Of a DNA stretch of 20,691 bases, positions 2,563-18,451 are shown in pieces (within the stretch, counting starts at the first letter, position 1; each line of letters starts with the position of its first letter). Origin of the DNA: Octopus sinensis (taxonomy: Eukaryota); NCBI RefSeq assembly GCF_006345805.1, contig NW_021823866.1, positions 1-20,691 of the forward strand. Reading direction: 5' to 3'. The position numbers and the translations under genes are program-made. A model generated the notes under the pieces. It was not told the origin of the DNA, made no database searches, and saw only the letters and a list, made by a program, of their open reading frames with translations.

Positions 2563-2683
2563 ATATATATATATAATATAAAGTTAATCCAAACATGAAA
2601 ACACAAAGAGAAAACACAACAACGCGAGGACGTGGAACAAGTACAGTGTTATTGGACGCTCAGGAAGGAAGGGAAGAAGGAGG

Positions 2684-2718
2684 GTTTTACGTTTCGAGCG
2701 GAGCTCTTCGTCAGAAAC
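2684..2718 (-). ncRNA. Minimal type I hammerhead ribozyme (Penelope-like style)
   Basis: Minus strand reads GUUU-CUGACGA-A-GAGC-UCC-GCUC-GAAA-C-G-UA-AAAC: canonical core, 4-bp stem II, loopless palindromic stem III, GUA triplet, 4-bp stem I. Confidence 0.75.
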
Positions 2719-2799
2719 ATAGGAAAAGGAAAGATCCAGAGAAAGGAAGACGGAGGGAAAAAAATCGCCAACGGTACACACGAGGTCACATTTTGAATG

Positions 2800-4232: not shown

Positions 4233-4507
4233 TTTTACTCTCTTTTACTCTTTTACTTATTTCAGTCATTTGACTGCGGCCATGCTGGAGCACCGCCTTT
4301 AGTCGAGCAACTCGACCCCGGGACTTATTCTTTTTTTGTAAGCCCAGTACTTATTCTATCGGTCTCTTTTCCCGAACCGCTAAGTGACGGCGACGTAAAC
4401 ACACCACCATCGGTTGTCAAGCAATGCTAGGAGGACAAACACAGACACACAAACATACACGCACATACATATATATACATATATACGACGGGCTTCTTTC
4501 AGTTTCC
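4233..4507 (-). mobile_element. 3' half of family B SINE
   Basis: Reverse complement of about 5905-6175, including the (GAGTAAAA)n tail. Confidence 0.92.
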
Positions 4508-4939
4508 AAGGCAACACCAATGTCCTCTCAACGATTAGCCAGAGATGATTTTTAAAATGAGAATATCTGAAATAAACTTGACTACTCTCACAAATGAGAA
4601 TACTAAAAATGAACCTGATCACTCTCAAAAGTTAAGTAAAAAAAAACAGGAAAATATTCCAGAATCCTTGTCTGGTACCGGATCGATCCCAAAATCTAAT
4701 CAGTTCGTGCCAGTTATGAGGTCAAACATCCCTGAAAGTTTCATATGAATCCATCGAGCGGTTCTTGAAATATCTTGTCCATGGACAAACAGACACGACA
4801 CCAAGGTAACACCAATGTCCTCTCAACGATTAGCCAGAGATGTATTTTAAAATGAGAATATCTGAAATAAACTCGACTGCTCTCACAAACGAGAACACTA
4901 AAAATGAACTCGACCTCTCTCAAAAATTAAGTAAAAAAA
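4506..4939. mobile_element. About 1.5 units of a 295-bp tandem element, HINE/DINE-1 (non-autonomous Helentron)-like
   Basis: 4506-4644 repeats at 4801-4939. The intervening CCGGATCGATCCCAAAATCTAATCAGTTC...AAGTTTCAT..AATCC...GAAATATCTTG...ACAAACAGAC resembles HINE cores (from memory). The repeat is certain; the family is tentative. Confidence 0.6.
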
Positions 4940-5121
4940 TACACGCTCTTATTATTATTATCAGTTATTTTGTCCTGCAATTCTCTGGTTCACTGATAGT
5001 TGCTGTTGGAAAATGTGAACTACATTCCGCTGCTAATTGGGTTAGTTATTGCAACAGCAGTCCCAGATAGATCTTTGCACTATTAAACATGCCAAATAAT
5101 TGTTGCCTTGGTGGAGATTTG

Positions 5122-5183
5122 CTCTCTCTCTCCTCCTCTCCTCCTCATCTCCATCTTCCTCTTTCTCGCCTCTCCTCTCTCTC

Positions 5184-5239
<56 letters not shown>
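5122..5239. repeat. (CT)n microsatellite / pyrimidine tract
   Basis: Direct reading. Confidence 0.95.
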
Positions 5240-5243
<4 letters not shown>

Positions 5244-5301
5244 GTTCTTGTTTATTTATATATTGCGAACTGAGACGGATGACTGCCATGTTTAGCAGAC
5301 A

Positions 5302-5362
5302 GGTGTCCAGTACTGAGGAAGGGTAAGACCCTGAAACCAGTTCTGCTCTACTGGTCGTCACC
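5302..5362 (+). ncRNA. Type I hammerhead ribozyme with extended, bulged stem I
   Basis: GGUG-U-CCAGUA [CUGAGGA 5313-5319] AGGGU-AAG-ACCCU [GAAA 5333-5336] CCAG-UU-CUGC-UC | UACUGG-UCGU-CACC. Predicted cleavage after C5348; one C-C mismatch in stem III. Confidence 0.75.
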
Positions 5363-5511
5363 GCTGGATAGGAAGTTGTTTGCAATATAACGGACACAGA
5401 TATTGTGTCGTTAACCAGCTGGAACAAGTGTCCTCCTGGGGCTAAAGAGAGTAGTGGCATTGTCCTCAATGGAACGACCACGTTGAGGTGGCCAACAGCC
5501 ATTGCTTTTAA

Positions 5512-5760
5512 CTCTCTCTCTTTACTCTTTTACTTGTTTCAGTCATTTGACTGCGGCCATGCTGGAGCACCGCCTTTAATCGAGCAACTCGACCCCGGGA
5601 CTTATTCTTTTGTAAGCCCAGTACCTTATTCTGTCGGTCTCTTTTGCCGAACCGCTAAGTGACGGGGACGTAAACACACCAGCATCGGTTATCAAGCAAT
5701 GCTAGGGGGACAAACACAGACACACAAACACACACACGCATATATATGTATATACATATA
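5512..5760 (-). mobile_element. 3' half of family B SINE, inverted relative to the adjacent full copy
   Basis: Near-perfect reverse complement of 5927-6179. Confidence 0.93.
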
Positions 5761-5762
5761 TA

Positions 5763-6179
5763 GGCGCAGGAGTGGCTGTGTGGTAAGTAGCTTGCTTACC
5801 AACCACATGGTCCCGGGTTCAGTCCCACTGCGTGGCACCTTGGGCAAGTGTCTTCTACTATAGCCTCGGGCCGACCAAAGCCTTGTGAGTGGATTTGGTA
5901 GATGGAAACTGAAAGAAGCCCGTCGTATATATGTATATATATATATGTATGTGTGTATATGTTTGTGTGTCTGTGTTTGTCCCCCTAGCATTGCTTGACA
6001 ACCGATGCTGGTGTGTTTATGTCCCCGTCACTTAGCGATTCGGCAAAAGAGACCGATGGAATAAGTACTGGGCTTACAAAAGAATAAGTCCCGGGTCGAG
6101 TTGCTCGATTAAAGGTGGTGCTCCAGCATGGCCGCAGTCAAAATGACTGAAACAAGTAAAAGAGTAAAAGAGAGAGAGT
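5763..6179 (+). mobile_element. Full-length tRNA-derived SINE, family B (CORE-like domain, internal TA/TG tract; resembles octopus OR-type SINEs)
   Basis: A-box-like TGGCTGTGTGG (5773-5783), B-box-like GGTTCAGTCCC (5816-5826), CORE-like ACCTTGGGCAAGTGTCTTCTACTATAGCCTC (5837-5867), 3' GGTGCTCCAGCATGGCCGCAGTC..TGACTGAAAC and GAGTAAAA tail. Many copies in the window. Confidence 0.93.
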
Positions 6180-14852: not shown

Positions 14853-15047
14853 ATGTACGTATGTATGTAATATATATATATAAACGACAGGCTTGTTTCA
14901 GTTTCCGTCTTCCAAATCCATTCACAAAGCCTTGGTCGGCCCGAGGCTATTGTAGAAGACACTTGCCCAAGGAACCATGCAGTGGGACTGAACCCGGAAC
15001 CATGTGGTTGGTAAGCAAACTACTTACCACACAGCCACTGCTACGCC
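14544..15047 (-). mobile_element. Full-length family B SINE with expanded internal (TA)n
   Basis: Reverse complement is colinear with 5763-6175. Confidence 0.92.
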
Positions 15048-15506
15048 TGTATGTACGTATGTATGTATGTATGTATGTATGTATGTATGTATGTATGTGA
15101 TGTATGTAGTATGTATGTGTATGTATGTTGTATGAGTGTATATGTATGTATGTATGCATGTATGTATGTATGTATGCATTAATTTATGTATGTATGTATG
15201 CATGTATGTGTGTGTGTGTGTGTGTGTATGGTTGGATGGATGGATGTGTACGTAAATGTTGATGAGCCTAGGGAGGTGTTTTGAAAGTGCTCGTCAGTGG
15301 GAGGGGGTGAGATAGGGTATTGAAATCAATTGGGAGGATGGAAGGGTAGGTTTTGCGGGGAGGGCGGTAATTCAAGACACGAAGTCAGTGAAGCGTGCAA
15401 GAAACAACAGCCAGCGAGAAGTGACACAGTTGTCACAGGAAGTCTGGCACCAGTCACTATCAGAGGTCAACACAGACCTACATTAAACACAAAATACTTA
15501 TACACA

Positions 15507-15915
15507 CTCTTTTACTCTTTTACTTGTTTCAGTCATTTGACTGCGGCCATGCTGGAGCACCACCTTTAGTCGAGCGAATCGACCCCAGGACTTATTCTTT
15601 TGTAAGCCCAGTACTTATTGTATCGGTCACTTTTGCCGAACCGCTAAGTAACGGGGACGTAAACACACTAGCATCGGTTGTCAAGCAATGCTAGAGGGAC
15701 AAACACAGACACACAAACATATACACACACACACATATATATATATACATATATACGATGGGCTTTCAGTTTCCGTCTACCAAATCCACTTACAAGGCTT
15801 TGGTCGGCCCAAGGCTATAGTAGAAGACACTTGCCCAAGGTGCCACGCAGTGGGACTGAACTCGGAACCATGTGGTTGGTTAGCAAGCTACTTACCACAC
15901 AGCCACTCCTGCGCC
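15507..15915 (-). mobile_element. Full-length family B SINE
   Basis: Reverse complement is colinear with 5763-6175; head ends ...CTCCTGCGCC. Confidence 0.93.
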
Positions 15916-15939
15916 TATACGTACGTAAATAAATACGTC

Positions 15940-16333: not shown

Positions 16334-16837
16334 ATAAAAATACATTCTTTTATTTATTTGCAGGCTATAGTTTTGTGACACCCCCCCACCCGACCTGGTC
16401 ACCACAGCCGTCTTAGCCCTATGCCACTATGGTTAAACCTCCATGTCTATAAAGTGGGATCAGATTGCATTGGCTAACTCTCACTTTAGAACTATTGAGT
16501 GCAGAAAACAAGAAAAGCACTTCAGCGCCAAGGATCGGTTTACACGGCCGTGTGAGGGCGTGCCTCTCTCCCTCGTGATCATCGGACATGAAGAAACTGT
16601 CTTCATGTGTATATGTATATCAGGTCACTCTTAGTGCTACCGGTAATATGTAAGCTTATAGCTTATATGACTGGCCTGTTGGTGGCTAAACCGGCAACCT
16701 TACCAGCCTGCGTCGTAAGCTTTCATTAAATATCCTGCAGGACGGAAAACGTATCCTGTCCAAAAACGGATGTACTAAGTAAAATTAACTAAATAAAACC
16801 CAACAGCTGGAAGTGCGAGGCCAGAGACATTTAGTGT

Positions 16838-17049
16838 ATAGATTGGCATATTTCGGTCATATTATGCGGAGAGAATCCCTGGAGAAGGACATCATGCTCG
16901 GAATGGTCAGTGGCAAGAGAGGAAGAGGCCGACCAAGAACCTGCTGGCTTAACACCATCAGGAGTAATACCGGAATGGACATGGCCAATCTGAAGGAAAG
17001 GACACTGATCCAACGAATGACCGAGAGTCGACTTCGACTGAGCGGATAG
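16838..17049 (+). pseudogene. RTE-clade LINE ORF C-terminal fragment, copy 1 (internal deletion)
   Basis: RLAYFGHIMRRESLEKDIMLGMVSGKRGRGRP...RMTESRLRLSG*; lacks about 24 bp present in copy 2. Confidence 0.9.
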
Positions 17050-17100
17050 AGAAATAGAAAGTGTGTGTATATATATATATATATATGTATATGTTTGTGT

Positions 17101-17454
17101 GCATTCGAGCTTTGGTGTTGGAGAAGACTTTTATGGATTCCATGGACAGCGAGGCTCACAAATGGAGAAGTTCTTAAGCAGATCCGGCCGAAAATGTCAC
17201 TAGAAGCCAGGATCAACCAACATAGATTGGCATATTTTGGTCATATTATGCGGAGAGAATCCCTGGAGGACATCATGCTCGGAATGGTCAGTGGCAAGAG
17301 AGGAAGAGGCCGACCAAGAACCCGCTGGCTTGACACCATCAGGAGTGATACTGGAATGGACAAGGCCAGTCTGAAGGATGCGGCCCAGGATAGAATTGAC
17401 TGGAGGACACTGATCCAACGAGTGACCGAGAGTCGACTTCGACTGAGCGGATAG
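17101..17454 (+). mobile_element. 5'-truncated RTE-clade (BovB-like) LINE, C-terminal domain downstream of RT, copy 2
   Basis: AFELWCWRRLLWIPWTAR.TN.EVL...RLAYFGHIMRR.SLE..MLG.V.GKR.RGRPRTRWLD.I...AAQDR..WR is the characteristic RTE C-terminus; 3' GAGTCGACTTCGACTGAGCG stem-loop. Confidence 0.95.
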
Positions 17455-17880: not shown

Positions 17881-18368
17881 GTATATATATATATAGGTAG
17901 GTACAAGCGCGCACACACACAGAGGAAGATCCAGAAGAAGCAAGAATGGTCGTGGCTTGATTGTCTTTTGATCAAAGCTAAACCGGGGGTTAAACGACAA
18001 CAACCACAGCATCAGCAGCAAGCCATACTATACACAGGGCGCACTCAAGCGCAAACGGCCGACATGCGCCTCTTTCTGTCTATCGCATCGCAATGACGCG
18101 TAACCGGATCCGCAATGGTTACACGTTGTTGGGTCAGGTTTCCAGATCGTGTATCGTTTCACCTGTACGTCTCAGATTCTCCTTTGAAACCCTACTCACC
18201 TTTCGGCCGGTCGTTTACAAAAGCGAATCCATTCAGGTTTGAATGGATTTGTGTTCCAGCGTTGAGTGAATGCTGTTCCAATGACCAAATAAATGGCGTA
18301 AATGGCGCCCTTGTTGAACGAACAATGAAATTTGGTCAGCGGTGCAGAGGAGTTTGTGCGACTCGAGA

Positions 18369-18451
18369 CGCTCGTCAGTTTCCTCGTCAGCTGTGCGATC
18401 CGGGGCGCTCGTCAGTTTCCTCCTCAGCTGTGCGATCCGGGGCGCTCGTCA
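18369..18451. repeat. 37-bp GC-rich tandem repeat, about 2.2 copies
   Basis: CGCTCGTCAGTTTCCTC(G/C)TCAGCTGTGCGATCCGGGG at 18369 and 18406, partial at 18443. Confidence 0.95.

What the first reader, a model, noticed from the sequence alone, without database searches (positions are those of the whole stretch)
5240..5510. Retrozyme-like 270-nt structured island around the best-formed hammerhead
Seen: besides the HHR (6-bp stem I, internal loop, 4 more bp), the same strand pairs 5259-5270/5378-5389 and 5242-5247/5392-5397 around it, plus 5464-5471/5481-5488 and 5450-5458/5498-5506; non-Watson-Crick positions in these helices are G-U. An alternative fold offers GUC at 5354-5356 with stem III 5337-5341/5350-5354. 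Established: metazoan retrozymes are short, structured, non-coding units with type I HHRs that form circular RNAs. Inference: a solo retrozyme unit; the C5337-C5346 mismatch may weaken it.
Basis: partly seen in the sequence, partly recalled or inferred. Interest (0 to 1): 0.75.

Follow-up and report, generated by a model that had tools for sequence, protein, structure and literature searches.

The report
Decayed copy of Penelope-driven retrozyme
This is an old, truncated and mutated copy of a scattered 353-base non-coding repeat that carries a hammerhead (self-cutting RNA) motif; this copy is predicted to be inactive, and the ends of its sister copies indicate that the family was likely pasted into the genome by a Penelope-type retrotransposon enzyme.

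Summary
Window 5251-5509 is about three quarters of a 353-nt, circularly closed, non-coding repeat (roughly 1,000 segments, about 85% like their majority sequence). The family carries a type I hammerhead with a palindromic stem III at the tip of a long rod with compensatory changes. C5346 is a decay mutation (G in 23 of 27 other loci); two deletions further disfavour the active fold. 5240-5250 belongs to a different, Helentron-type element, and the 3' hairpins are private to this copy. Sister copies show a Penelope footprint: 3' ends at two sites about 60 nt apart (90 of 126), scattered 5' ends, back-to-back arms, microsatellite flanks, and read-through across the cleavage site. A young relative (352 nt, 93-99% alike) shows the same ends. 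No partner element, cleavage or RNA circle was shown. The scan reported this kind of element and footprint several times before on other DNA of this genome. Verdict: dead copy of a new family of a known kind.

The parts
5251..5509 (+). Remnant of the 353-nt retrozyme unit (monomer positions 258-353 and 1-171; position 1 = first base after the cleavage site)
5259..5270 (+). 5' strand of the helix at the base of the long rod (pairs with 5378-5389); compensatory changes between subfamilies
5307..5312 (+). Hammerhead stem I, 5' strand
5313..5319 (+). Hammerhead core box C3-A9, intact
5320..5332 (+). Hammerhead stem II and loop 2
5333..5336 (+). Hammerhead core box G12-A15.1, intact
5337..5346 (+). 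Stem III / loop 3; palindromic in the family; C5346 replaces the family's G16.2 and breaks the C15.2 pair
5347..5348 (+). U16.1 and C17; predicted cleavage would fall after 5348
   Evidence: hammerhead numbering as in PMC4209133 Fig. 1 legend and recalled
5349..5354 (+). Hammerhead stem I, 3' strand; in this copy predicted to be captured by 5337-5341 instead
5356..5376 (+). Two deletions against the subfamily majority (2 nt at 5357, 11 nt at 5376) that damage the rod below the hammerhead
5378..5389 (+). 3' strand of the rod-base helix
5393..5409 (+). Family-conserved 6-bp hairpin (92.6% of cells paired), shared with lineages B and C
5450..5506 (+). Long 3' hairpin private to this copy; relatives form two short hairpins here
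5500..5509 (+). 3' end of the insertion, at the family's first preferred end site (monomer 164-171)
5101..5250 (+). 3' end of a high-copy Helentron-type non-autonomous element, with a (CT)n expansion at 5122-5239; forms the left edge and is not part of the retrozyme
5510..5600 (.). Short CT run, then an unrelated very high-copy repeat from about 5521; right flank

Best explanation
Window 5251-5509 is a truncated, mutated copy of a dispersed 353-nt non-coding repeat with a type I hammerhead, predicted to be inactive in this copy and likely inserted long ago by a Penelope-type reverse transcriptase/endonuclease. Shown: the unit closes on itself, encodes no conserved frame, keeps one fold across lineages only 51-61% alike, and its copies end at two fixed sites with variable 5' ends, back-to-back arms and microsatellite flanks. 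Inferred: active ancestors were transcribed as more than one unit; two palindromic stems III paired to give a double hammerhead that cut out monomers; a host ligase closed these into circles; the borrowed enzyme nicked TA-rich DNA, started copying about 170 or about 228 nt after the cleavage site and ran through that site for 0.2-1.7 laps. This copy began at the first site. Later a Helentron-type element inserted into its T-rich tract and the part upstream was lost, and point changes and two deletions accumulated.
For: Family: 44 matches from 40 scored of 530 candidates; a 19-mer gives 558 matches against 0 for the control. Unit 350-358 nt in six subfamily majorities. Circular fold z -5.2 to -8.5 (60 shuffles each); family structure 86.8% of cells paired, 47 cells with both sides changed against 26.0 +/- 4.0. 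Stem III is a palindrome of 8, 10 or 12 nt in different subfamilies, the dimer-type design described in PMC4209133. 3' ends: 90 of 126 type A segments in two windows covering 12.5% of the unit, 5' ends 11 of 126; 42 of 46 adjacent pairs are back to back, 19 with one arm at each site, 2 with both at the same site; microsatellite after the end in 43 of 63 and 35 of 61 against 18% background. PMC11167929 ties such a 'tail' to two internal start sites of a Penelope enzyme. 113 of 176 segments cross the cleavage site and 7 start near it (8.0 expected). Young lineage C: 42 of 46 ends at two sites, up to 3.2 units in a row. This copy: active fold 11.1 kcal/mol above ground state against 1.4-2.8 in intact type A relatives, stem III self-duplex -6.2 against -14.8; ordinary age (8% non-CpG divergence).
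Against: No cleavage, transcript or circle was observed. No autonomous partner shares sequence with the family. Types A and B never reach two full units in the sample (longest 603 and 621 nt; 44 of 176 segments exceed one unit), unlike the tandem arrays that define retrozymes. Read-through of the cleavage site fits an uncut multimer as well as a circle, and PMC11167929 found cleavage unnecessary in vitro. Both strands fold about equally well in z terms. The number of pairs with a change on both sides is not above shuffles (12 against 11.0) and relatedness inflates the cell count. The two end windows were drawn after seeing the data; 21 of 42 back-to-back pairs have an arm at neither site; one pair (L023) is counted twice. 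One subfamily has C at core position 4 and its active fold is predicted 5.6 kcal/mol up. Rfam does not see the hammerhead.
Confidence: 0.82

Rival explanations
1. The sequence is the pseudo-LTR of an autonomous Penelope-like element, left as a 5'-truncated fragment.
For: Same insertion footprint; Penelope pLTRs carry palindromic hammerheads (PMC4209133); locus L116 joins a decayed GIY-YIG-bearing frame directly to a type B segment.
Against: The unit closes on itself at 353 nt with no extra sequence; 23 Penelope protein pieces hit 5 of 116 family loci and only L116 is joined; 0 of 29 other copies of that Penelope family carry family sequence; the Penelope elements examined have their own, different hammerheads.
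Confidence: 0.08
2. An intact solo retrozyme that still self-cleaves and makes a circular RNA from this locus.
For: Both core boxes, stem I and stem II are intact; rod still folds (z -3.30).
Against: One hammerhead only, 86 nt of the unit missing, G16.2 lost, two deletions, active fold 11.1 kcal/mol above ground state.
Confidence: 0.03
3. The family is Penelope-mobilised, but the template was an uncut linear multimer and the hammerhead served a role other than making circles.
For: No 5' end pile-up at the cleavage site; hammerhead cleavage not needed for insertion in vitro and no reads ending at the cut site in PMC11167929; a core variant is fixed in one subfamily.
Against: Helices that close across the unit junction and a constant 350-358 nt length across lineages 51-61% alike are easiest to explain by a circle; a multimer template needs long arrays, not seen for types A and B; related units are shown circles in coral, mussel and axolotl (PMC7229834). 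This is a variant of the best explanation and not exclusive of its other steps.
Confidence: 0.25
4. A chance structured stretch, or a host-conserved functional ribozyme.
For: No Rfam match; modest z on both strands.
Against: Hundreds of dispersed homologues; divergence typical of neutral decay.
Confidence: 0.02

Closest known systems
Metazoan non-LTR retrozymes (Cervera and de la Pena 2020, PMC7229834: passages and sections 14 and 17 read; Li, Clavereau and Pollet, bioRxiv 10.64898/2026.07.22.740005: parts 1-3 of 5 read)
   Same: Non-coding unit of about 350 nt (mussel 350-390, axolotl 330-350), about 45% GC, type I hammerhead with 6-bp helix I, 4-5-bp helix II and short palindromic helix III, strongly self-paired as a circle, co-existing with Penelope elements; solo 'monomer' derivatives are described in the preprint.
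   Different: Types A and B occur as dispersed 0.2-1.7-unit insertions, often two-armed, not as tandem arrays; this copy is under one unit and mutated. The parts of those papers that I read do not describe fixed end sites or inverted arms. No homologous pLTR was found, unlike 21 Penelope matches for Xenopus families in the preprint.
Penelope-like elements and their pLTR hammerheads (PMC11167929: parts 1-2 of 4 read; PMC8557442: passages; PMC4209133: parts 1-2 of 4 read)
   Same: Partial tandems, inverted 5'-truncated arm, optional 'tail' between two 3' end sites, (TA)n targets, palindromic helix III, start sites downstream of the hammerhead.
   Different: No open reading frame; tail about 60 nt in type A (about 45 in C) against 30-40 described; helix sizes are those of the canonical metazoan hammerhead, not the minimal pLTR form (helix II 7-8 bp, helix I 4-5 bp).
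HINE / DINE-1 non-autonomous Helentrons (PMC4067079: passages) - for the left flank only
   Same: Subterminal inverted repeats, T-rich target, no duplication evident, high copy number.
   Different: Only the 3' end is kept at 5101-5250; no autonomous partner was sought.

Membership tests
Metazoan non-LTR retrozyme | Type I hammerhead with canonical helix sizes | tested here: met
   Family majority and intact natural copies; in this copy G16.2 is lost. Of 78 type A hammerhead regions 14 kept both boxes and the triplet, 5 passed the script's strict helix filter.
Metazoan non-LTR retrozyme | Unit of about 170-400 nt that closes on itself | tested here: met
   350-358 nt; this copy keeps 267 of 353 positions.
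Metazoan non-LTR retrozyme | Tandem arrangement with two or more hammerheads | tested here: inconclusive
   Not met by this copy. 44 of 176 type A/B segments exceed one unit, none reaches two; relative C reaches 3.2 units. Sample was 114 loci of some hundreds.
Metazoan non-LTR retrozyme | No protein coding | tested here: met
   No frame shared by the six majorities; one 117-codon frame in a single subfamily only.
Metazoan non-LTR retrozyme | Low GC (under 45%) and high self-pairing | tested here: met
   GC 0.44-0.45 (borderline), 64-68% of bases paired, z -5.2 to -8.5; this copy 0.47.
Metazoan non-LTR retrozyme | Self-cleavage | not testable with these tools
   Only folding energies.
Metazoan non-LTR retrozyme | Expression as circular RNA | not testable with these tools
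   Only contigs of runs not on record as RNA were available.
Metazoan non-LTR retrozyme | No LTR, primer-binding site or polypurine tract | not tested
   No dedicated search; variable 5' ends argue against LTR structure.
Penelope-like element (autonomous) | RT plus GIY-YIG open reading frame between pLTRs | tested here: not met
   None in the window or joined to type A copies; one type B chimera among 116 loci.
Penelope-like element (autonomous) | Insertion footprint: two 3' end sites, inverted arm, 5' truncation, microsatellite target | tested here: met
Penelope-like element (autonomous) | Sequence shared with a pLTR of this genome | tested here: not met
   No match in 30 + 30 + 14 Penelope loci other than inserted type B/C copies; a small sample of 5,029 GIY-YIG candidates.
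HINE / non-autonomous Helentron (left flank) | Subterminal inverted repeats and insertion next to T residues | tested here: met
   Full copies of 306-524 nt with matching 5' and 3' repeats and T-rich flanks; window 5101-5129 matches their 3' end at up to 27 of 29 bases. Empty sites and an autonomous partner not tested.

The most novel reading that the evidence does not exclude
This copy is a fossil of one stage in a long succession of roughly 352-nt RNA circles (lineages A, B, C; 51-75% alike) that kept unit length, fold, a palindromic dimer hammerhead and two fixed copying start sites, and the L116 chimera records a template switch that names a Neptune-type Penelope enzyme as their carrier; together a genomic record of rolling-circle reverse transcription of retrozyme circles, testable with the young lineage C and the intact 775-781-residue Penelope frames in the same genome.
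Probability: 0.3. Interest if true: 0.6.

Novelty: new member of a known kind. Interest (0 to 1): 0.3.

Why it matters
The locus itself is a dead repeat. The family matters modestly: the papers read only propose that Penelope elements mobilise metazoan retrozymes, from co-occurrence and pLTR likeness; here the insertion ends give independent, mechanistic evidence, and old and young lineages supply natural covariation for the RNA features that the enzyme recognises. No description of a cephalopod retrozyme family was found (the giant squid paper PMC6962438 only counts 235 Rfam hammerhead hits; 2 passages read); supplements of PMC7229834 and of the preprint were not seen and may list such elements. 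The scan has already reported the same kind of element and footprint on other DNA of this genome, so this adds an older family rather than a new principle.

Tried and rejected
ADAR-editing origin of this copy's A-to-G changes (7 A>G against 2 T>C): no family-wide strand asymmetry, 407 of 10,053 against 471 of 11,420, ratio 0.98. A distinct young subfamily behind the 3' hairpin: no sampled copy shares it (best 85% over that region among 143) and the copy's age is ordinary; position 5464 has the family T in run X7. Alternative GUC at 5354-5356 as a second ribozyme: no stem I. Window copy and L002 as duplicates because both have the Helentron-type element at the same position: 77% identity and different diagnostic sites; 28 of 30 junction matches are that element in other T-rich targets, so independent insertions are more likely. 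Lineage B or C as pLTR of neighbouring Penelope frames (L090, L144, L187): separated by microsatellites or opposite in orientation. The 115-codon minus-strand frame at 5182-5529: not kept in majorities. RNAalifold on 34 decayed copies gave only 10 pairs. Rfam: no hammerhead match. No tRNA gene. No RNA holder listed; run X24 is RNA only by guess and was not used. A paper search for the effect of losing the 15.2-16.2 pair found nothing, so that point rests on recalled knowledge and folding energies. Earlier-finding look-ups by sequence and near this place were blank. Rows left out: 7 overlapping loci from the 123 family loci, segments under 80 nt, 4 of 30 lineage C loci as overlapping or duplicate.

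Full report
Setting. The window is contig C337 of a 2.72-Gb animal genome, rich in microsatellites and repeats. Earlier scan notes call the genome an octopus; I did not test this.

Observation. 5240-5510 folds at z -2.90 on the plus and -2.54 on the minus strand. The signal is in 5251-5400 (z -3.30), not in 5401-5510 (z -1.50). The hammerhead boxes are at 5313-5319 and 5333-5336, with cleavage predicted after 5348. Rfam does not detect it.

The family. A DNA search gave 530 candidates and 44 matches from 40 scored, 73-80% alike over most of the length. A 19-mer has 558 matches with at most one mismatch against 0 for the control. Nine of 27 DNA-found loci match that well and 47 of 77 assignable exact hits are type A, so about 1,000 type A segments is a rough estimate. 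Beyond the window's 3' end, relatives continue for about 85 nt and re-enter the window's 5' part: the unit closes on itself at 353 nt. Five type A subfamilies and a sister lineage B have units of 350-358 nt, and copies are 81-87% like their majority. A young lineage C has a 352-nt unit, 2,046 candidates and copies 93-99% alike. A, B and C are 51-75% alike. No reading frame is shared.

RNA structure. As circles the six majorities fold at z -5.2 to -8.5, the reverse strands at -5.1 to -8.0. Stem III is a palindrome whose length differs among subfamilies, which PMC4209133 describes as the dimer-type design.

State of this copy. It keeps positions 258-353 and 1-171 and lacks 86 nt. 5346 is G in 23 of 27 other loci (one other copy, L152, also has C) and in most contig depth of three runs; C is confirmed for this copy in runs X4 and X2. 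It also has 2-nt and 11-nt deletions. The active fold lies 11.1 kcal/mol above the ground state, against 1.4-2.8 for L004 and three type A majorities and 5.6 for a fourth; with the family base at 5346 the gap is still 5.4. These are secondary-structure energies without magnesium or tertiary contacts and only rank the sequences. Divergence is ordinary: 8% at non-CpG sites, 3 of 17 CpG positions decayed, medians 10% and 15% over 111 segments. With one hammerhead it could not release a monomer even if active.

Edges. 5101-5250 is the 3' end of a high-copy element (3,914 candidates) with subterminal inverted repeats and T-rich targets, the features PMC4067079 gives for non-autonomous Helentrons; its CT run has expanded. 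L002 holds a whole copy at the same retrozyme position with upstream retrozyme-like sequence beyond it. No other family sequence lies in the window. The right edge at 5509 is the family's first end site.

How the family moved. Of 126 type A segments, 42 end at positions 158-176 and 48 at 216-240, windows covering 12.5% of the unit and chosen after seeing the data; 11 of 126 begin there. Forty-two of 46 adjacent pairs are back to back; 19 use one site each, 2 the same site, 21 have a clipped or other end; L023 is counted twice. Microsatellites follow 43 of 63 and 35 of 61 ends against 18% background. In lineage C 42 of 46 ends fall at 173-174 or 216-219 and 13 of 17 back-to-back pairs use one of each (counted by eye; the query favoured the second site). 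PMC8557442 describes inverted arms, a one-sided tail and (TA)n targets for Penelope elements, and PMC11167929 shows that the tail lies between two internal start sites. 113 of 176 segments cross the cleavage site and 5' ends do not gather there (7 against 8.0), so the template was a ligated circle or an uncut multimer, not a cut linear monomer. Forty-four of 176 segments exceed one unit; none of types A or B reaches two; one C locus has 3.2.

Partner. GIY-YIG matches are abundant (147 of 150 scored, 5,029 candidates), with intact frames of 775-781 residues whose flanks carry their own hammerheads. None shares sequence with the family. Penelope protein pieces hit 5 of 116 family loci; only L116 is joined, a decayed frame running in sense directly into a type B segment at stem III, absent from 29 other copies of that element. 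One case could be a template switch or an insertion plus deletion. The label Neptune-type rests on the CxxC linker seen by eye and a passage of PMC8557442; the reverse transcriptase domain was not scanned.

Verdict. It works like a Penelope-mobilised retrozyme. The family meets the sequence-level features of non-LTR retrozymes, with tandem organisation only partly met and cleavage and circles untested. This copy is a dead fragment. I reached the two-site reading before consulting earlier notes; those notes report the same pattern for other copies or families in this genome and are not independent support. Interest 0.3.

Noticed in passing
window 2675-2725, minus strand: A second, minimal hammerhead (both core boxes, 4-bp stem II, no loop 3, 4-bp stem I); a similar motif occurs in L179. 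Looks like a Penelope terminal-repeat type.
   Followed up: no
window 18355-18451: 37-nt tandem (2.6 copies) that on the minus strand repeats hammerhead-like core boxes without a stem II between them.
   Followed up: no
window 4506-4943, minus strand: Two partial tandem copies of the Helentron-type element, about 90% like the whole copy in L002 and opposite in orientation to the 3' end at 5101-5250.
   Followed up: partly
window 16789-17454: Two tandem fragments of a reading frame resembling the C-terminus of an RTE-type LINE (label recalled, not scanned).
   Followed up: no
window 5625-6065: 138-nt inverted arms around a 165-nt core of very high-copy SINE-like repeats, with further copies near 4328-4485, 14870-15099 and 15584-15919 (SINE label recalled).
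   Followed up: no
L116:2930-3818, minus strand: Decayed Penelope frame fused in sense to a lineage B segment at the hammerhead stem III; single case.
   Followed up: yes
L044, L047, L121, L122, L126, L129 and others: A whole subfamily has C at hammerhead core position 4 and an A-A mismatch at the base of stem II, yet spread widely.
   Followed up: partly
L258-L287: Young lineage C (352 nt, 93-99% alike, mostly intact hammerheads, sharp two-site ends); the best material for experiments.
   Followed up: yes
L186:1174-4874: A young Penelope family with a 479-residue frame upstream of and overlapping the 781-residue frame.
   Followed up: no
L121: The two arms of one insertion share private substitutions, as if copied from one variant RNA (seen by eye).
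   Followed up: no
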